Source: Octopus vulgaris (Eukaryota). From it: a stretch of 64,000 bases of DNA. Below the pieces are notes generated by a model. It ran no database searches. It was not told the DNA's origin and worked only from the letters and a program-made list of their open reading frames with translations. Positions 2,950 through 56,617 of the stretch are shown in pieces (within the stretch, counting starts at the first letter, position 1; each line of letters begins with the position of its first letter). The position numbers were made by a program, and so were the translations under genes. The stretch spans positions 77,252,001-77,316,000 of the forward strand of contig OX597823.1 of the NCBI GenBank assembly GCA_951406725.2, given 5' to 3'.

Positions 2950-3322
2950 GCAGCTATGACTGCGTTTAGGAATTTAAGAAGTTTGCTTCCCATCAATGAG
3001 GTTACAGTTCCAATGCATGGCACCTTGAGTGAGAATCTTTTACTCATGAATGGATTCGATTAAGAGAATCTGAAAGAAGCATATTGCATGCATGTGTGCA
3101 TATAGTCACACATATACATGTATGTGTGCATTTCTTTACATGACTGTTGTAAACGAGTGTCACCATCATTCAGGTGTCCTTCATTTTCTAATCTTCCATA
3201 AAATCTTGTCTGATAGAAGGAAAATATTGAATTTTGGTAATGGAAAGGTCAACCTGTCATAGAAAATCTACTTCAACAAATTCTCTCTCACCCATGCAAG
3301 CATAGAAAAGCAGATATTAAAA
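2950..3322 (+). mobile_element. Old SINE with SINE-A-like head and RTE-like tail
   Basis: Degenerate head; ends CACCCATGCAAGCATAGAAAAGCAGATATTAAAAT like the RTE 3' end; related to 51640-52062. Confidence 0.55.
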
Positions 3323-3441
3323 TCGTATGTATGTATGTATGTATGCATGCATGCATGCATGTATGTATGTATGTATGTATGTATGTATGTATGTATGTAT
3401 GTATGTATGTATGTGAGTGTGCATGTATGTATATGATTGTG

Positions 3442-3489
<48 letters not shown>

Positions 3490-3642
3490 TGTATGTATGT
3501 ATATTCACATATACCTCAAGGGTATGCCCTGGCACTTACTTCTATTTATATATCTCTCTTCCTTTACTCAGCCATCTCATTTATACTCTAATCCCCCATT
3601 CCTTGTAAGTATCCCTGACCTTTTGCCATCTCCATCCTACAG

Positions 3643-3679
<37 letters not shown>

Positions 3680-4390
3680 CTCTTGCACTTCCCTCAGGTT
3701 GGGCAACGGTGTATTTTCTTTGCAGTAGCACTCCTGTTTCTGTCTCCATTTCTGATCTTTTTCTCTCTGGCCAGGTAACCTTGTACTTCCTCTACAGCAA
3801 GACACCTGTATCTGTCTCACTAGAACCTTTTCATTATCACCTCCTCCCCTCTTTGAAGTTTTTGTCTTGCAAGTACTTGGTGACCCTGTCAATGCAGGTG
3901 CCACTTAAACACACACAGTCCACACTGTAAAGTGGTTGGTGTTGGGAAGGGCTTCCATCTGTAAAAATCTTTCAAAACTGACTTACCTGTGCTTGTGCCA
4001 TGTAAAAAGCACTAAGTCATACAGTTGACTGAACATGTCCAAACAATCAATGCTCCAAACATGTCCAAACAATCAATGTTTTCTGTCAAGTGTTTGTAGA
4101 GAATAAACGTATGATTAAGTTGATAACCTTTTGTACCTTTCCTGCTATATTTGTGTGTTAATGTCATGTGACAGTATAGTTTACATCTAAAAAGAAGGCT
4201 GACACAGCTGAGTGAACATATTTAGTAATAATCAAGGCACTCCAAATTTAATCTGTCGGGTGGGACAGTGGGCAAGAGTCATTTGTATATCGTCCAATGG
4301 CTAAAGTTTTGGTTGTTAGCTGTGTAGCTTCCTCATGATAAGTGGCAGAATGAATTTTGTGTGTGAAGAGTTATTTGTGTATGTACTCTG

Positions 4391-6520
4391 TTAAAGTTTG
4401 TCAAGTCTTGATTTGTACTTTTGTATGAAAGTATTTTCTTTATTTATCCATGCTTCATCCGTGGTATTCCCTGAACATTGGTAGAGTGGGAAGACCTGGA
4501 ATTTTGGGGATTTATTTTTTGCACATACGTCTATGTTTCCACTCAATAGAATTGATCTAGTACTGGGGTCTCATATTTGTTGTCGGTGAATGGTCAGTCC
4601 ATTTCTTAGAGTAAGCTTTGTTTGACCTGTGTAATCTTCATTACATCCTTGACATTTGATAGCAGGTCTTGCAATTGGGGTGGCCACACATTTTGACTGT
4701 TGGTGTAGGAATTTTGAGGAATTTTTTCGAGGGACCTTGATGGTTTTTACTTTTAATTTTGTATATTTTTTTTACTTTTGGTTTTGTATATTTCGAATGC
4801 TTGTTTCGTTCTTGGATCTTGTTTTAGTAGTGGGATGTTCTGATGGATAATATTGTAAACTTCTGTTTCTTGGGTTGTGTGTTGTCATAAATGGTAGAGT
4901 ATTGGATGTATCTGGAGCGTTTTTCGTTTTTTGTAGTTCTTCGATATTTATTGCTTTGACATGTTCTATTCTGTTGTCTATTAGCATTAATGGATATTGT
5001 CTTTTAAGTAGTACTTGTTTTAGTTCCTGGAGTCTTTTATTGTGAATTTCAGGGTTTGAGACAACTGTGCAGATTCTTCTTGCTAGATTAAAGGGGATAT
5101 TATTCTTCGTGTGTTTGGGATGGCATGAGGAGAACACTAAGTATTGCTTAGAATCTGTTTGTCTGTAGTGAATATCTGTTTCAATGTTTTTTTATCTCTT
5201 TTGATGGTTAGTATATACAGGAATGGTAGTTGAGTTTTACTGTATTCCATGGAAAAGTTAATATTATTGTTTTAGCTGTTGATAAGATTTTTTAAATCTA
5301 TAAGTTGCTCAAACATGTACGTCCATTGGATCAGGCATTCATCTAAGTAATATTTGTGAAAGTTCAAGCCATATATTAATTTAGATTGATCATATATCTG
5401 GACCTCTATGTATGCCACGACTAGATTCATGTAAGTCGGAGCAACTTTTGTCCTCATCACAGTCCCAGGTATTTGTTTGAAAATATTGCCATCAAAACCA
5501 AAAAAGTTGTTTTCGAGGATAAACTTGAATCCACCAGAGATGAATCTCTTTTGAATCTGTCTGGAATTTCATGAGGGAATTTCTCAAGCCATAAATTTAT
5601 TGCCTCTAATTCTTATTAGTGTGGGATTGTGGTATAGAGGCTTACCACATCAAAAGATACAATAGTGGTATTATTGTTTATGGATCTTGGGAGGTGGTTT
5701 AACAGGTCCAGGTTGTCCCTCAAAAGACCTGGTATGCATTTTAAAACAGATTTCAGTAATATATCTAAAAAGTTTCTGAGTTTGTATGTTTCACAGTTCG
5801 GGCCTGCTACGATTGGTCTAAATTTCAGGTCAGCGGGATATTGTATGTTTATGCAACTTGAAGTTGGTTCTTTATATGCATTCTTAATAGTTTGATTCTT
5901 ATGGATTTTGAGGAGATCACAGAAGTTGCTAGTCTTGCAAAATGGGTTAGGTAGTCACATTCATTGTTTGTTAAACCTTTTTGATATCTGTGAATGAGTG
6001 TGTTCAGTTTAGTCATTGTCTTTGATTTTTGGTAATTATTCACCTTTTCGTAGTGGGGCGGGGTCATACCTTGTAATATACATAGTATATCTCTTTTCTA
6101 GTGTCCATAATAACTACAGTACTTCACTTATCTGCTTCCTCACTTATTACGGGGTGGAAGTTCTTTGTAAGTGAAGGTAGATATAAAATCACAAAATGTA
6201 TCTAAGGCTTTACCTGTCATAGGCTTGTAATTGACTCTTTTTTCTTACAATTGATTCCTCCCTAATTTCTTTATCGTACAATTCCTCTGTTAGGTGTAGT
6301 TTTCTATAGAACTGTGAAATATTGTTTTGTATTTCATTCGAGTTAGGGTGCTATGGTGCTGGGGTAAATTTTAGGCCATTTGCTAAAATATTAATTTCTA
6401 CTGAGAAAGTTTTTTGTATAGGTTAATTGTCTGGTTTCTTATCTTTTTTGTATAGTTTAATTATCTTTGGTTTCTCATCTTCACAGTTGACATGTTCAGC
6501 CAACCATGTCAGCCTTAAAT
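4391..6520 (-). mobile_element. Decayed Penelope-like retroelement (RT + GIY-YIG endonuclease), probably Neptune-type
   Basis: Minus-strand peptide fragments ILANGLKFTPA, EADK*STVVIMD, FRPIVAGPNC, IVSFDVVSLYTTIPH, GTVMRTKVAPTYMNL, SSCHPKHTKNNIPFNLARRI, CGHPNCKTC, CQGCNEDYTGQTK and KENTFIQKYK; stops and frameshifts present. Confidence 0.9.
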
Positions 6521-6919
6521 TATGGTGCCAAACACAAACATTGTCACTTGATACAAACACATGGATGTAGTGGGGAACCTACAAAATTTTCTAAGACCAG
6601 TCATATGACTATCCTCTACCAATTAAATACTATTCAAAAGATATATTAATTTGAGACCTAAAATCCCTATAAAAATAGGGCAAGCTTCAAACATTAGGCA
6701 GAAGCAAGACAGCTGTGACAAAAGCCACGTCTTTATATTTGAATATTTTGAAAATCAGGGCAAATTGTAAAACCAGTTAAAACTTTAAATAATTTAATAA
6801 AAAAATTAGAATAATTCTCAGCATATCTTCAACTTCTACTTTCTTATATTTCTACCTGTGCAGAATCAAATAACTTTGTTTTATACATATACATACATAT
6901 ATATATAAAGAACTTTTTC

Positions 6920-7150
6920 TTCACCCATTCCCTTCTAGTCATTTCAATGTGTGCCTGCATGTGTATCGTTGGCGATTTTCTTTCTCCGTCTTCCCTTCCT
7001 TGGACCTTTCCTTTTTTCTATGTTTCTGACGAAGAGCTACACTTGAAACATTAAATCCTCCTTCTTTCTTTCCTTTCCTGAGCGTCCAATAACACTATAC
7101 TTGTTCCACATCCTCGCATTGTTGTGTTTTCTCTTTGTTCATGTTTGGAT

Positions 7151-7155
<5 letters not shown>
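6920..7155 (+). mobile_element. Short repeat (HH family 2) with hammerhead-like motif, ending in (TA)n
   Basis: 7022-7056 GTTT-CTGACGA-A-GAGCTACACTT-GAAAC-ATT-AAAT; runs directly into a long (TA)n. Confidence 0.65.
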
Positions 7156-7218
<63 letters not shown>

Positions 7219-7268
7219 ACATATTATATATTGTCACATATATATATATATATGACATATTATATATT

Positions 7269-7303
<35 letters not shown>

Positions 7304-7316
7304 CATATTATATATT

Positions 7317-7347
<31 letters not shown>

Positions 7348-7380
7348 GACATATTATATATTATCATATATATATATATG
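7155..7380. repeat. (TA)n with a repeated ATGACATATTATATATTATCA unit
   Basis: Four units separated by variable (TA)n. Confidence 0.85.
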
Positions 7381-8019
7381 TAATTTGGACCCGACATTTG
7401 CAGCACTCTACTAAAAATAACAGGACACAATAAGAGTTTTTTTAAATCTACAAAAGAAACAATTCAAACCCCAGACCATTATCAAACACCTGACATACTG
7501 AACAAACTTGATAAGAATCATGACTTTTAGTCATCAATAACAACAAGTACTCTATATTGATTATAAACCATTGAACACACATAAAATTATTTTTTCAAAC
7601 TTTTTCAGCCATCAAATTTAATGAAGTTTCCGATCGATATATCTTTGTTGTCCTTGCTAATGTTGTTTAATTGTTCCTAAGGTACTATGGCTCTAATTTA
7701 CTGCACTTCCTTACATGTTCATTTAAGTCCTTCAGTTCTTTTTTTACTTTAATCTTATTTTTTTTTTTTTTACTTGAGTGTGTATTTGTTTACTAATTTC
7801 TGGTTTGGAACATTTTTGATTTTTTTTTTTTGTTTTGAATTTTTTTACGGATTTCATGATAAGGAAAATAAAAAATTAGTATTAAAAAGGAGAATTACAG
7901 AATGTATTTTTTGTGGTTTTTACTCCATTTTAATTGAATTTCTTACAGTTTAATGTGTCAATTTGGTTTGTTCCTAACAAACAAATATCAAATCTAAGTG
8001 AGTGGTACTGAGAATCATC

Positions 8020-15031: not shown

Positions 15032-15748
15032 GAAATTATCTATGAATATGTGTTATATCATGTACATTCCAAATATACAAATTTTTTGGCGGAAAGTGTT
15101 TTAGGAGGGGTGGGAGTGGAATTTCGGAAAATTCACCAAAGTCCACATCAATTCGCTTGACTTTCAGGAAAATGGATATTTTTTAATGAAATTGTCTACA
15201 AATATACCTCGAGCTATTTAGATTCTGAGCATATATAAATATTGTGGGGATGCAAAACAATTGAGGGTTAGAAATTATCTATGAATATGTGTTATATCAT
15301 GTACATTCCAAATATACAAATTTGTTGGCGGAAAGTGTTTTAGAAGGGGTGGGAATGGAATTTCGGAAAATTCACCAAAGTCTACATCAATTCGCTTAAC
15401 TTTCAGGAAAATGGATATTTTTTAATGAAATTGTCTACAAATATACCTTGAGCTATTTAGATTCTGAGCATATATAAATATTGTGGGGGTGCAAAACAAT
15501 TGAGGGTTAGAAATTATCTATGAATATGTGTTATATCATGTACATTCCAAATATACAAATTTGTTGGCGGAAAGTGTTTTAGAAGGGGTGGGAATGGAAT
15601 TTCGGAAAATTCACCAAAGTCTACATCAATTCGCTTAACTTTCAGGAAAATGGATATTTTTTAATGAAATTGTCTACAAATATACCTTGAGCTATTTAGA
15701 TTCTGAGCATATATAAATATTGTGGGGGTGCAAAACATTTAAGGGTTA
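15032..15748 (+). repeat. Tandem repeat, 3 x 239 bp
   Basis: Units start GAAATTATCTATGAATATG at 15032, 15271 and 15510 and are nearly identical. Confidence 0.95.
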
Positions 15749-16759: not shown

Positions 16760-17122
16760 ACACAAAACGGAGAAACTGAAACAAATATGCACGACTTGTT
16801 CCGAAACACCAACCAGTGGGGAACTGTTCCCAAAAATAACTCCCAGTTGTTTTTCCCCCAAATAATTGCTTGGAATCTACATAGTCCTAGGTATATTTCT
16901 AGACACTTACATTTAAAAATATCCATTTTCCTGAAAGTTAAGATGAATTGAAGTGGACTCTGGTGAATTTTCCAAAAATCCTCCATATCCCTCTTAAAAC
17001 ACTTTTCCCCCAAAACTTTTGTATATTCAGAATCTACATGATATAACATATATTCATAGGTAATTTCATTAAAAAAATATCCATTTCTCTGACAGTTATG
17101 ATTATCCAAAGTCGGTGAGGGG
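16760..17122 (-). repeat. Diverged inverted copy of the 239-bp unit and its flanks
   Basis: Reverse complement of about 14980-15270 plus 15750-15825. Confidence 0.8.
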
Positions 17123-30006: not shown

Positions 30007-30563
30007 TTAAGGGCATTACTACACGTAAATGACTCATGTTATGAGGGACTCTTGAAGTCAAAACTACCATAATAAATGATAATATTTATTATGGTAGTAC
30101 ATTTAAATATTTGTTGTGCAAGATTTTTTATGTGAAGTCGTGTGTTGAAACAGATATTGTTATATTTGAATGGTCATATTGCCAGTTTAGCCAATAAAAA
30201 CACACGCACTATATATTTGGTGTTATTTTGCTTCAGTGTTATTTATTTTTTACATTAATCTTAATCTTATTTTGGCCAGAGTTCTTTCGTCACACTCCTG
30301 TGACCGCATTAAGTAAGAAGAAAACAAAGGACCACTGATGCGGTCACAGGAGTGTGACGAAAGAACTCTGGCCAAAATAAGATTAAGATTAATGTAAAAA
30401 TAAATAACACTGAAGCAAAATAACACCAAATATATAGTGTGTGTGTTTTTATTGGCTAAACTGGCAATATGACCATTCCGAAATATAACAATATTTATTA
30501 TGGTAGTTTTGACTTTAAGAATCCTTCATAGCATGAGGCATTTATGTGCAGTAATACTCTTAA
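30007..30563. repeat. Nested palindrome; inner arms 30154-30309 / 30338-30494 carry a hammerhead-like motif (HH family 3)
   Basis: Near-perfect inner inverted repeat with a 28-nt spacer, diverged outer arms, and an 18-bp direct repeat at 30081-30098 / 30490-30507. Confidence 0.9.
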
Positions 30564-30829
30564 TATATATATGTGTGTGTGTGTTGGGATTATTCCAGTT
30601 TCCCTTTGCCAAATATACTCACAAGGCTTTTGTTGACCTGAGGCTATAGCAGGAGACACTCAACTAAGGTGCCATGCAGTGGGACTGAACCCAGAACCAT
30701 GTGCTTGGACAGCAAGCATTTTAACACACAATCACACCTGCTCATACTTTCAACTGAAGATTTTGAGCAGGGACACCGATGGACTGAAGCGAATATATAT
30801 TAGTATGAGTAAATGCATAAATGAGATGC

Positions 30830-35419: not shown

Positions 35420-35660
35420 TACGTAAAAAGCACCAACCAATTGTGGCCGTTTGCCAGCCTCCTCTGGCCCCTTGTGCCAGTGGCACATAAAAAGCACCCA
35501 CTACACTACACAGTGGTTGGCATTAGGAAGGGCATCCAGCTGTAGAAAAACTGCCAGATCAGACTGGAGCCTGGCACAGCCTCCTGGCTTCCCTGACCCC
35601 AGTCAAACCGTCCAACCCATGCTAGCACAGAAAACGGATGTTAAACGATGATGATGATGA
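35420..35660 (+). mobile_element. RTE 3' end with (GAT)n tail
   Basis: Matches 43400-43616. Confidence 0.85.
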
Positions 35661-35661
35661 A

Positions 35662-36680
35662 GTATCAGTCCTCATCCTCCTCTTGTTCACCATAGTCCTC
35701 CAGGTAACAACAGAGAACTTTAAGTCAAGCTGCCCCTGGGAGTTCCTCTATGCTGATCACTTTGATCTTGTGGCTGAATCACTATCAGAACTAGAGAAGA
35801 AATTTCAGGTGTGGAATCAAGGTTTAGAATCAAAGGGCCTTAAAGTTAATTTAGCAAAAACCAAAGTCTTGGTAAGTAGGAAAGCAGATAAATCACAAAT
35901 TCCTTCAGGTAGATGGCCCTGTTCAGTATGGAGAAAATGTGTTGGTGGAAACTCCTTAAGATGTAACCAGTACAAGCTATGGACATATGAGGTGCAGCAG
36001 TATCAGAGGAAGGTTAACAAGGAAAATAGTCTTTGTGTGTGGCAGCTGTACAGGTACAATAAACACTAGAAATGTGCAGAAAACAGACCCCTTCAAATGC
36101 CAGGGGGATACCTAGAAGTAGTTGATAGCTTCCATTACCTAGATGACCAAGTCAGCAGCAGAGGTTGGTGCTCCAAGAGCATAGCTGCTAGAATAAGAAT
36201 GGGCTGAGCAAAGTTCAGAGAGCTTCTACTTTTGTTGGTAACCAAGGGCCTCTTCCTCAGAGTGAAAGGAAGATTGTATGCTGTCTGTGTGTTAACAGTC
36301 ATGCTACACAGCAGTGAAATACGGGCTGTGACCGCTGAGGACATGCATAGGCTTGAAAGAAATGAGGATGGTATGCTGGACGTGCAATGTCAGTGTGCAT
36401 TCGCGACAGAGTGTAACTGTCCTGAGAGAAAAATTGGGCATAAAAGTCATCATATGTAGTGTGCAAGAGAGACAACTGCACTTACCAAGTGATGCATATG
36501 AACAAGGACAGCTGTGTAAAGAAATGCCAACCCCTAACTTTGGAAGGAACGTGTGGAAGAGGCAGACCTAGAAAGACAAGGTGGTGAAATATGATCTTCG
36601 AACATTAGGCCTCACAGAGGTGATGATAAGTGACTGAGACATTTGGCAATATGCCGTGCTTGAGAAGACTCATCAATCTA
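35662..36680 (+). mobile_element. Decayed RTE LINE RT fragment
   Basis: SVLILLLFTIVLQ...PWEFLYADHFDLVAESLSELEKKFQVW...VNLAKTKVL; paralog of 41733-42676 with frameshifts. Confidence 0.9.
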
Positions 36681-36718: not shown

Positions 36719-37620
36719 TCAGGTCATTAACAATGAAATGTCCGATTTTGAACTGAAAGTTTATTTTACTTTATCTCAACAAATAGCAATGCAGTTAATC
36801 AAAGAATGCATTAAATTATCAACACAATTTTGCCATTTTATTGGTAGCTTATTTATGTTGGCAGCGAAGAATTCTAGAGAGCAAGAGATGATGAAATCGT
36901 GAAAGGTTGTTTTTACATCTTTTTCAGATTTGAAGTTTTTCCTTTGCAAAAAAGTTGTCTAATGGCTGGAAAAGGTGATAGTCAGTGTAATGTCTGGTGA
37001 ATATGGTGGATGACAGAGTACTTCCACGTTCAGTTCCTGTAACTTGAGTAGTATTCTTTTGTGCAACATGTGGTCGAGTATTGTCTTGCAAGAGAATTGG
37101 CCTCTCTCTATTGACTAATCTCGGTTGTTTAATTGCAAGTTCACTCATTATTTCATCCAACTGGTTGATGTATACATCTGCTGTAATTGACCTGCCAAGT
37201 CTTATGAAGTTGTAGTAGATGACATCAGCGCCGGACCACAAAACAGACACCATTACCTTTTTTGGTGTATATTCTTTCTTGGATTGTGTTTTGGCACTTT
37301 GTCTCTATCCAAGCACTGTGTAGAGCACTTACTATTGTTAAAAAGAAACCATTTTTCATCGCCCATAACAATACGATGCAAAAATGGTTTGCTTTTATGC
37401 CATGACAGCAAAGAACAGCAAATTTCAAGATGACGTGTCATTTGATGCTTGATCAGTTCATGTGGTATCCACTTACCCAGCTTCTTTACCTTGCCAATTT
37501 GTTTCAGATGGTCCAATACAGTTGGAGTCGAAACATAAAACCTTGCTGCTAACTCACATGTAGTTTGAGATGTATCTGCTTCCACTACAGATTCCAGCTA
37601 ATCCTTATCCACCTTGGTCT
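36719..37620 (-). mobile_element. mariner transposase remnant with one probable TIR
   Basis: KKLGKWIPHEL, FLHRIVMGDEKW, PILLQDNTRPHVA and TDYHLFQPLDNFF (D,D34D type); frameshifted. Confidence 0.92.
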
Positions 37621-41237: not shown

Positions 41238-41732
41238 ATATGTAATAGAAAAACGTTGCCTGACCAATGAAATTAAGCAGTGATATATGTGTCAGTTATG
41301 AATTTTATTTCATAAATTATTTCCAACTTCAAAATGTCAAATGATGATTCAAAGATTTGTAAGAGTCATTAAATTCATGAGCAATATCATGAATAATAAA
41401 GGTAAGATATTAAATCACCAGCAACATTTCCGATAATGAAAACACAAAACAGATATAAATTCGGGATTGTAAAATGTCAGTATTACCTAGAAACCAATAT
41501 CTCATTATAATGTATCCACTGTTTGTTTTATCATATTTAGTAAAAATTAATTTTCAATAGGTTTTAGAATTTGCTGCACAATTTACAATGGAACTTTCAA
41601 TCAAAATAGACGAAGTCGACAGAATTAATTTAAAACTAAATATATTCAAATCTGAACATTGATTTATGCATTTTACACACACACACACACACATATATGT
41701 ATATACATTCTCACAGGTTTTTTTTTTTTTTA

Positions 41733-42676
41733 CTCTTGCTCTAATTGCTGAGTCACTATCAGAACTGGAGGAGAAGTTTCAGGTGTGGAAACAAGGATTA
41801 GAATCAAAGGGCCTTAGAATCAACCTAGCCAAAACCAAAGTCTTAATAAGTAGGAAGGTGGACCAATCACAAACGACTTCAGGTAGATGGCCCTGCTCGA
41901 TCTGTAAAAAAGGTGTAGGTAGAAACTCTATAAGGTGCACCAAGTGTAAGCTATGGACACATAAGAGGTGCAGCAATGTCAAAGGAAGGCTAACTAAGAA
42001 AATAGTTTTTGTCTGTGGCAGATGCTCAGGAGCAATAAACACTGGAAATGTGCAGAGACCAACTTCTACCACGTTCCAGGGAGACAAACTAGAAGTCGTT
42101 GATAGCTTCCGCTACCTAGGAGACCAAGTCAGTAGCAGTGGTGGGTGTACTGAAAGTGTAACTGCTAGAGTAAGAATAGCCTGGGCAAAGTTTAGAGAGC
42201 TCTTACCCCTGCTGGTGACAAAAGGCCTCTCGCTAAGAGTAAAAGGCAGACTGTATGATGCATGTGTATGTACAGCCATGCTACATGGTAGTGAAACATG
42301 GGCCGTGACTGCTGAGGATATGCGTAAGCTCGCAAGAAATGAAGCCAGTATGCTCCGATGGATGTGTAATGTCAGTGTTCATAATCGTCAGAGTGTAAGT
42401 ACTTTGACAGAAAAGTTGAACCTAAGAAGCGTCAGTTGTGGTGTGCAAGAGAGACGGCTGCGCTGGTATGGTCATGTGACGAGAATGGCTGAAGATAGTT
42501 GTGTGCAAAAGTGCTACACCCTAGCAGTTGAGGGAACCTGTGGAAGAGGTAGACCCAGGAAAACCTGGGACGAGGTAGTGAAGCACGACCTTCGAACTTT
42601 AGGTCTCACCAAGGAAATGACTAGAGACCGAGTCCTATGGAAGTGTGCTGTGCATGAGAGGACCCGGCAGGACTAG
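41733..42676 (+). pseudogene. Truncated RTE reverse transcriptase ORF with PHD-like insert
   Basis: From ORF track 41666..42676; the first ~22 aa are microsatellite/poly-T and are not part of the element. Confidence 0.9.
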
Positions 42677-56427: not shown

Positions 56428-56617
56428 CAACAACATCGAAAAATACCTTAGGAACAAGAACCCAGGTTCGAAATTTCCCCAAGACACCTGATGAAGGCTG
56501 GAGGGTATATCAGCCAAAACGTTGTGTTAACAACAAACAAGACGAGGACAAATATCTGTCAAATGTAAATAAAGTAAATAATGTACATAATTCCTCATCT
56601 CTTAAATATAGAACTGT
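56425..56617 (+). mobile_element. HH family 1 element (motif at 56483-56528)
   Basis: GACAC-CTGATGA-A-GGCTG-GAGGGTATAT-CAGCC-AAAAC-GTT-GTGTT; preceded by (AAT)n(AAC)n. Confidence 0.8.

What the first reader, a model, noticed from the sequence alone, without database searches (positions are those of the whole stretch)
30007..30563. Palindrome inserted into a palindrome, with an 18-bp direct repeat and a variant hammerhead motif at the apex
Seen: near-perfect ~156-bp inverted arms (30154-30309 / 30338-30494, 28-nt spacer) sit inside an older, more diverged inverted pair (30007-30077 / about 30494-30563). The inner block is bounded by the direct repeat AATATTTATTATGGTAGT (30081-30098, 30490-30507). 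Removing the inner block and one repeat copy restores a simple hairpin. At 30330-30373 the sequence reads GACCA-CTGATGC-G-GTCAC-AGGAGT-GTGAC-GAAA-GAAC-TC-TGGCC, a hammerhead-like fold with CUGAUGC instead of CUGAUGA. The left arm stops inside that core. Inference: a Penelope-type inverted pLTR (third hammerhead family) inserted at a cruciform-forming site.
Basis: partly seen in the sequence, partly recalled or inferred. Interest (0 to 1): 0.72.

Follow-up and report, generated by a model that had tools for sequence, protein, structure and literature searches.

The report
Nested Penelope palindrome with variant hammerhead
Two cut-off ends of a very common repeat sit head to head inside an older hairpin repeat; they are likely the ordinary leftover of a Penelope-type jumping gene, but most related sequence shares an unusual letter in the core of its predicted self-cutting RNA, which would allow a test of whether that RNA motif matters.

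Summary
The structure is real as described: 156-bp inverted arms (154/155 identical), an 18-bp direct repeat, and a 148-bp hairpin once the 409-bp inner block is removed. Contigs of four public runs show that the inner block belongs to a very abundant repeat. The 28-nt spacer and the start of the 55-nt extension are family sequence, so neither arm is a copy of the other. A head-to-head, 5'-truncated pair with a tail at one end, a target duplication, a minimal type I hammerhead and an ORF start is the published layout of Penelope-like insertions. The outer hairpin belongs to a second abundant repeat. Cruciform targeting is not needed: the target offers a 5-nt AT match to the element's usual end. 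The one uncommon point is C at hammerhead core position 9. It is not a private mutation: canonical A holds only 16-34% of the laid depth, while the rest of the core and helix II barely vary. No RT/endonuclease ORF could be linked, cleavage is untested, no long read spans the locus, and the key paper on such variants was unavailable. Verdict: known kind of insertion, possibly new core variant.

The parts
30007..30077 (+). Outer hairpin, left arm: end of a second abundant repeat family, TTAA at the outer end, next to a TA-rich tract
   Evidence: matches the family-majority letter at the positions mirroring 30521 and 30525
30081..30098 (+). First copy of the 18-bp direct repeat (target duplication, 13-18 bp); starts in the loop of the outer hairpin and runs into its 3' arm
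30099..30153 (-). 55-nt 3' extension ('tail') present only on the inverted copy; AC-rich; open reading frame through to its end
   Evidence: its first 30 nt resemble the loose-end consensus behind 30494 in runs X1, X4, X5; the last 25 nt are not checked against other copies; frame
30154..30309 (-). Inverted, 5'-truncated copy of the repeat end (left arm); begins inside the hammerhead core, so it lacks C3-U4-G5 and the 5' strand of helix I
30310..30337 (+). 28-nt spacer: family sequence upstream of the core, present only on the sense copy; head-to-head junction at 30309/30310 without visible microhomology
   Evidence: depth in bins 30308-30329 and loose ends before 30310 in 4 of 4 runs
30329..30373 (+). 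Minimal type I hammerhead motif: helix I 3+2 bp, core, extra nucleotide, 6-bp helix II, GAAA, 2-bp helix III with AA loop, predicted cut after 30368
   Evidence: layout compared with Fig. S3 of PMC4209133
30341..30341 (+). Core position 9: C here and in the left arm (30306); canonical A in a minority of family sequence
   Evidence: A = 33.7, 19.5, 30.3, 16.3% of depth in X1, X3, X4, X5
30338..30494 (+). Sense, 5'-truncated copy of the repeat end (right arm); ends at the family's common end point
   Evidence: loose ends behind 30498 are TA repeats in 4 of 4 runs
30469..30492 (+). Likely ORF start: ATG plus 7 codons in the right arm; the same frame stays open for 23 codons to the end of the left block (4 codons overlap)
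   Evidence: family-majority A at 30468 (57-61%); no protein match found
30490..30507 (+). Second copy of the direct repeat; the first 5 nt also fit the element's end
30493..30563 (+). Outer hairpin, right arm; TTAA at the outer end, followed by TA/TG repeats; other family members continue inward with different sequence
   Evidence: depth and loose ends before 30492-30497 in X3, X4, X5

Best explanation
This is a nested insertion: two 5'-truncated ends of a very abundant repeat are joined head to head between copies of a 13-18-bp duplication inside a 148-bp hairpin of another repeat, and the inner repeat is likely the pLTR of a Penelope-like retrotransposon whose enzyme would have made it in one event. 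Shown: the arms, the duplication, the empty-site hairpin, the abundance of both families, and that each arm carries family sequence the other lacks (28 nt at the 5' side on the right, 55 nt at the 3' side on the left). Inferred: the endonuclease nicked both strands 13-18 nt apart in an AT-rich site. Each nick primed reverse transcription on RNA from the same source locus, one at the family's common start point (helped by the 5-nt AATAT match) and one about 55 nt further downstream, which makes the tail. Both cDNAs stopped near the hammerhead and were joined end to end. The insert holds no RT or endonuclease and is inferred to be a dead end. Both cDNAs run through the predicted cleavage site, so the template was uncut there. 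I infer that the C9 hammerhead is weak or inactive on its own (about 65%), and that the C9 subfamily spread without needing efficient self-cleavage.
For: Geometry and empty site. 3003-7818 contigs laid per run in 4 runs, 3 studies, 3 organism labels. Spacer and first 30 nt of the tail are family sequence; copies ending near 30494 run into TA repeats in 4 of 4 runs. Both arms share A at 30374/30273 where 95-99% of family depth has G, so they come from one source. Other inverted joints of this family occur in the contigs, one of them in all 4 runs (30294>30343 in X1, X3, X4 and its mirror 30304>30353 in X5). Published layout: inverted pLTR, optional tail at one end, ORF start inside the pLTR, 8-10-bp duplications, head-to-head most frequent (PMC3846280; PMC8557442). 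A purified Penelope-like protein nicks and extends both strands, prefers AT-rich DNA, starts at two sites that define the tail, and inserts equally well with a dead hammerhead (PMC11167929). Variation inside the motif falls on position 9, the extra nucleotide, loop II, C11.1>U and C17>U; CUGAUG, GAAA and the other helix II bases show no listed change at 4%.
Against: No RT/GIY-YIG ORF was linked to the family: the 23-residue frame matched no Pfam model and none of 32 Penelope-like proteins convincingly (best shuffle p 0.03 among 32). The tail is 55 nt against 30-40 nt in the papers read, and its last 25 nt are unchecked. The duplication is longer than the 8-10 bp of the rotifer cases. The core fails the CUGANGA consensus and Rfam gives no hammerhead match. 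Helix III is not palindromic (AA loop) and its self-duplex is not stable in prediction (+0.7 to +1.4 kcal/mol). One helix I position varies in up to 4% (30371). No listed contig bridges 30309/30310 or shows the empty site (32 of 21,514 pieces and 24 of 607 loose-end rows were shown). Arkhipova 2013 favours a different route, self-priming on an antisense template.
Confidence: 0.8

Rival explanations
1. Same element, different route: one priming event followed by self-priming or a template switch onto an antisense or second template made the inverted copy.
For: Proposed for head-to-head Penelope junctions in PMC3846280. Both arms share a rare allele, which one continuous synthesis would also give.
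Against: That proposal rests on palindromes at the junction; here the junction shows neither a palindrome nor microhomology. Each arm has family sequence the other lacks, so a longer template was read twice. Two-strand nicking and extension has since been shown in vitro.
Confidence: 0.25
2. The inner repeat is a short non-autonomous hammerhead-bearing element (SINE-like or retrozyme-like) moved by a Penelope enzyme, with no coding parent of its own.
For: Very high abundance and no linked ORF. Animal retrozymes are described as non-autonomous relatives of pLTRs (10.64898/2026.07.22.740005). A dispensable core letter would fit a parasite.
Against: No tandem array here. An ATG followed by an open frame to the end of the tail, and loose-end consensi that differ mainly at third codon positions, point to a coding parent.
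Confidence: 0.12
3. The outer hairpin extruded as a cruciform and directed the insertion to its apex.
For: The inferred empty site is a 148-nt hairpin with a perfect inner stem and one inferred nick lies at or near the loop.
Against: The inferred nicks are asymmetric (loop or 4 nt into the arm, and about 16 nt into the arm). The AT-rich target and 5-nt match explain the site. Both families are abundant, so nesting is expected. One case only.
Confidence: 0.1
4. Assembly fold-back or a DNA-level fold-back (one arm copied from the other).
For: Arms are 99% identical and no long read or bridging contig was seen.
Against: Arms differ at 1 base and 2 indels; each has family sequence the other lacks; a duplication and the continuation of the outer hairpin flank the block. 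A fold-back of one arm cannot give this.
Confidence: 0.04

Closest known systems
Endonuclease-positive Penelope-like element insertions with an inverted 5'-truncated pLTR and tail (Penelope/Poseidon, Neptune; PMC3846280, PMC8557442)
   Same: Head-to-head inverted pair, extension at one end only, target duplication, ORF start inside the repeat, AT/TA-rich targets, hammerhead in the repeat.
   Different: No ORF body between the arms; tail 55 nt rather than 30-40; duplication 13-18 rather than 8-10 bp; clade not determined. Motif searches found no match in the Naiad/Chlamys/Hydra supplement.
Minimal type I hammerheads of metazoan PLEs (PMC4209133)
   Same: Long helix II closed by G10.1-C11.1, extra nucleotide after position 9, short helix I, 2-bp helix III (the Oikopleura row has the same G/C pair around a 2-nt loop), H17 = C or U.
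   Different: C at position 9: all 44 rows I saw of the 56 in Fig. S3 have A, though that search demanded the consensus core. Extra nucleotide is G (consensus H; one row has G). Loop III is AA, not palindromic.
Natural hammerhead core variants (U3-A8, C6, A6a, U13a, U15.1-A16.1; PMC3088659)
   Same: A single change in the conserved core with stems intact.
   Different: No position-9 variant is named in the section read; figures and the inactive-variant figure were not seen. Those variants are rare single cases, while this one dominates an abundant family.
Palindromic MITEs (Kolobok, Harbinger, Tc1/mariner types) - for the outer hairpin
   Same: Short, non-coding, abundant, inverted ends; palindromic MITEs are described in PMC12676858. 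TTAA or TA boundaries fit Kolobok or Tc1/mariner (recalled, from no call).
   Different: Other family members continue inward with different sequence, so this is a shortened or fold-back form; ends and duplication could not be checked on other copies; a head-to-head remnant of another retroelement in a TA tract is not excluded.
Non-LTR retrozymes (PMC7229834; 10.64898/2026.07.22.740005)
   Same: Short non-coding hammerhead-bearing repeat.
   Different: Retrozymes are tandem arrays, mostly with canonical type I motifs; this is a dispersed inverted pair with a minimal motif and an ORF start.

Membership tests
Penelope-like element (EN+) | Single ORF with telomerase-like RT and GIY-YIG endonuclease | tested here: inconclusive
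   Only about 27 codons are present; no Pfam match, no match in 32 related proteins of another family; no genome held
Penelope-like element (EN+) | Inverted 5'-truncated pLTR copy, head to head | tested here: met
   layout in PMC3846280 and PMC8557442
Penelope-like element (EN+) | Optional 30-40-nt tail at one end | tested here: inconclusive
   55-nt extension on one copy only; first 30 nt are family sequence; longer than published and last 25 nt unchecked
Penelope-like element (EN+) | Variable target duplication in AT-rich DNA | tested here: met
   13-18-bp direct repeat, empty-site hairpin restored in silico; TA repeats behind the family end; no real empty allele seen
Penelope-like element (EN+) | ORF begins inside the pLTR and runs through the tail | tested here: met
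   ATG 30469 and open frame to the end of the tail; short, so weak alone
Penelope-like element (EN+) | Hammerhead motif in the repeat | tested here: met
   fold at 30329-30373, with a non-consensus core letter
Minimal type I hammerhead (PLE type) | Core CUGANGA | tested here: not met
   C at position 9 in both arms; A only in 16-34% of family depth
Minimal type I hammerhead (PLE type) | GAAA, A15.1-U16.1, H17, G10.1-C11.1, extra nucleotide after 9 | tested here: met
   position 17 varies C/U in the family
Minimal type I hammerhead (PLE type) | Palindromic helix III allowing dimers | tested here: inconclusive
   AG-AA-CU is self-complementary except the two central bases; predicted duplex not stable
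Minimal type I hammerhead (PLE type) | Compensatory changes in the helices across copies | tested here: inconclusive
   helix II shows only C11.1>U; no two-sided change listed; individual copies were not available to align
Minimal type I hammerhead (PLE type) | Self-cleavage after H17 | not testable with these tools
   needs a cleavage assay
Non-LTR retrozyme | Tandem array with a hammerhead in each unit | tested here: not met
   no tandem array at this locus; other loci not examined
MITE (outer hairpin) | Terminal inverted repeats, short, non-coding, abundant | tested here: met
   71-bp arms; abundant in 4 of 4 runs
MITE (outer hairpin) | Fixed ends with a constant target duplication across copies | tested here: inconclusive
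   TTAA or TA boundary here; no second copy in the window; the tool skipped 30556-30590 as repeat
Naiad (N-terminal EN PLE) | Sequence relation to published cephalopod Naiad consensi; no canonical hammerhead | tested here: inconclusive
   exact motif searches of the supplement found no family match; no alignment could be run; TA preference is shared

The most novel reading that the evidence does not exclude
A very abundant Penelope-like subfamily carries a hammerhead with C at core position 9 that still cleaves (as a dimer or with protein help), a natural core variant that CUGANGA-based searches cannot see, living beside an A9 sister subfamily in the same genomes.
Probability: 0.2. Interest if true: 0.62.

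Novelty: new variant of a known kind. Interest (0 to 1): 0.33.

Why it matters
The palindrome itself is the usual debris of Penelope-like insertion and matters little. The family-wide C9/A9 split matters more. The role of hammerheads in these elements is open: they were proposed to process precursor RNA (PMC4209133), are dispensable for insertion in vitro (PMC11167929), and may merely ride along (PMC8557442). Two natural sister forms differing at one core letter give a direct test. If C9 is dead, the more abundant form spread without cleavage. If it cleaves, the core consensus is wider than the search descriptors assume and many motifs are being missed. The locus also keeps both 3' end points in one insertion, which fits priming from both nicked strands.

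Tried and rejected
Whole genome: none held, so no copy count, consensus or empty-site search. Rfam: no match at gathering score in the window; 21 sub-threshold matches at E up to 10, mostly generic miRNA hairpin models, none a hammerhead. Metagenome scan for the motif: 0 matches. No second copy of either family in the window. Sequencing runs: no RNA holder listed, no evidence either way. Contigs showed no empty-site joint and no listed piece bridging the central junction; output was cut and only 35 bp of the left arm were in the stretch laid, so this decides nothing. Only 4 of 24 listed runs were laid. The ORF remnant is too short for the protein homology search, so that link stays open; an indirect check against 32 Penelope-like proteins found no match. 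Alternative parse using the family's second GAAA (G at 30374) with a longer helix II: rejected by eye because no helix I forms. Papers on a position-9 variant: 'hammerhead'+'A9C' 0 papers; one search listed 15 of 16 papers, none on this by title or abstract start; supplements of PMC4209133 (file 2 only; file 1 not searchable) and PMC3088659 gave 0 hits for the core string. Luense et al. 2017 is not held. Earlier scan findings: nothing by sequence or place.

Full report
Observation. The inner arms (30154-30309, 30338-30494) are identical at 154 of 155 aligned bases with 3 gap bases and a 28-nt spacer; the outer arms match at 70 of 80; the 18-mer is exact at 30081-30098 and 30490-30507. Removing 30099-30507 gives a 148-nt hairpin bounded by TTAA with its loop at 30079-30082. 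The chance of the 18-mer per position is 6e-10. The hammerhead-like motif at 30329-30373 folds helices I and II in the minimum-energy structure; a motif with a non-A ninth letter, helix II of at least 5 bp and helix I of at least 3 bp arose 0.05 times per resampled window (60 windows). Rfam gave no hammerhead match, but at gathering score it also missed the three motifs that my canonical-core pattern found elsewhere in the window.

Setting. The window is AT-rich eukaryotic DNA full of microsatellites and dispersed repeats. It looks like a cephalopod genome to me; that is recalled, not tested. No genome is held. It holds a decayed Penelope-like RT element at about 4394-6350 whose relatives carry RT domains, so such elements exist in this genome. 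Its hammerheads and a second family are unrelated in sequence to the motif studied.

Other copies. I laid contigs of 4 of the 24 listed runs (3 studies, 3 organism labels) on 30275-30590 at 80% likeness. Between 3003 and 7818 contigs were laid per run, so the inner block belongs to a very abundant repeat; summed depth is not a copy number. Four results matter. (1) Family contigs cover the spacer and continue upstream of 30310 with other sequence, without visible microhomology to the left arm. (2) Behind 30494 many continue with sequence resembling the first 30 nt of the 55-nt block found only on the left copy (X1, X4, X5). So each arm holds family sequence that the other lacks, and neither can be a copy of the other. 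(3) Many others end near 30494 and run into TA repeats (4 of 4 runs): this is a preferred end, and its last 5 nt match the start of the duplication, which is therefore 13-18 bp. (4) The outer arm is covered by a second abundant family whose members continue inward with different sequence. Several other inverted joints of the inner family were listed, one in all four runs. Both inner arms share a letter held by at most about 5% of family depth (30374), so they come from one source locus or were homogenised later. Not seen: an empty allele, or a piece bridging the central junction; only 32 of 21,514 pieces and 24 of 607 loose-end rows were shown.

The ninth core letter. At 30341 the canonical A holds 33.7, 19.5, 30.3 and 16.3% of depth in the four runs (71, 77, 92, 83 contigs). 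No other letter reached the 4% listing limit, so C holds roughly two thirds to four fifths. C9 is thus a subfamily trait, not a private decay. Caveats: contigs closer to this reference are laid more easily, and depth favours young uniform subfamilies. Of the 7 listed variable sites in 30335-30374, five are at position 9, the extra nucleotide, loop II, position 17 (C or U, both allowed) and just past the motif; one turns G-C into G-U in helix II; one breaks a helix I pair in up to 4%. CUGAUG and GAAA show no listed change. This fits a maintained fold but a young family would look similar, and no compensatory change was seen.

What it is. PMC3846280 (passages and Discussion read) describes inverted pLTRs, an optional tail at one end, an ORF start inside the pLTR, 8-10-bp duplications and head-to-head as the most frequent arrangement. 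PMC8557442 (passages, supplement searches) gives the same layout and TA preference for some clades. Here an ATG at 30469 opens 8 codons in the right arm and the same frame is open for 23 codons to the end of the left block. PMC4209133 (parts 1-2 of 4 and part 2 of 3 of supplement file 2) defines the minimal hammerhead: long helix II, G10.1-C11.1, an extra nucleotide after 9, short helix I. The motif meets all of these except the core letter and a palindromic loop III. I could not link an RT/endonuclease ORF, so membership is likely, not shown.

How it works. PMC11167929 (parts 1-2 of 4) shows that a Penelope-like protein nicks and extends both strands, prefers AT-rich DNA, starts reverse transcription at two internal sites that define the tail, and inserts as well with a mutated hammerhead. 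I infer two primings, one from each nick, at the family's two end points, with both cDNAs stopping near the hammerhead and joined head to head. Both run through the predicted cut site, so the template was uncut. The rival is self-priming on an antisense template, which rests on junction palindromes that are absent here. Cruciform targeting is not needed: the nicks are asymmetric, the target matches the element's end, and both families are abundant. An assembly fold-back is unlikely for the reasons above, but no long read was seen.

Is C9 active? Unknown. PMC3088659 (passages and section 8) says most core changes cut activity sharply and names natural variants, none at position 9 in that section. 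PMC9901934 (passages and section 7) reports low activity for other single mutants around the CUGA turn, without a value for position 9 in the text I read. PMC7151607 (passages) shows that a core variant can keep activity in manganese. That A9 pairs with G12 in the active site is recalled, from no call. I put weak or inactive at about 65%.

Novelty. The insertion type is known; an earlier scan note on another genome reached the same verdict for a similar palindrome (unchecked, not support). For C9 I found nothing in print, and all 44 rows seen of the 56 in Fig. S3 of PMC4209133 have A, though that search required it. Luense et al. 2017, the paper on Penelope hammerhead variants, is not held (only its citation was seen) and may describe this class. 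Figures of PMC3088659, supplement file 1 of PMC4209133 and the per-mutant data of PMC9901934 were not seen and may bear on this. Also consulted: 10.64898/2026.07.22.740005 (part 1 of 5), PMC7229834 (passages), PMC6765202 (passages), PMC12676858 (passages), PMC11014351 (passages, nothing relevant).

Verdict. Real feature; known kind of nested retroelement remnant; one family-wide core variant worth an assay. Interest 0.33.

Noticed in passing
window 4394-6350 (-), with motifs at 2155 (-) and 7026 (+): Decayed Penelope-like element: frameshifted RT and downstream fragments; 32 relatives at E<=1e-5, best 66% identity. Hammerhead-type motifs of one family lie on both sides in opposite orientation.
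   Followed up: partly
window 45791 (-) and 56488 (+): Two copies of another minimal hammerhead family with canonical CUGAUGA core; the copy at 56488 has lost the G of GAAA.
   Followed up: partly
window 30338-30397 (+): The AUG of the hammerhead core opens a 19-codon frame. The C/A change at position 9 (Arg) and two other listed changes are synonymous in it: 3 of 7 listed sites, counted by hand, not clearly above chance. The left arm begins exactly at this AUG.
   Followed up: partly
joints 30294>30343 (X1, X3, X4), 30304>30353 (X5) and 30309>30446 (X1): Another head-to-head junction inside helix II appears in all four runs, across three organism labels. One X1 contig joins this locus's exact left-arm end to 30446: a separate insertion or a centrally deleted allele.
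   Followed up: no
window 30528 and its mirror 30042: Both outer arms carry A where 50-81% of family depth has C, so the two outer arms also share one source or subfamily.
   Followed up: no
window 36924-37597 (-): Frameshifted transposase remnant, Pfam Transposase_1 at 3.7e-16.
   Followed up: no
window 41663-42676 (+) and 35626-36069 (+): Two related ORF fragments that look like the 3' part of a LINE (recalled resemblance); Pfam gave only a sub-threshold PHD match for the first.
   Followed up: no
window 15032-15748: Three tandem copies of a 239-bp unit at 98% matches, with an inverted relative at 16761-17098.
   Followed up: no
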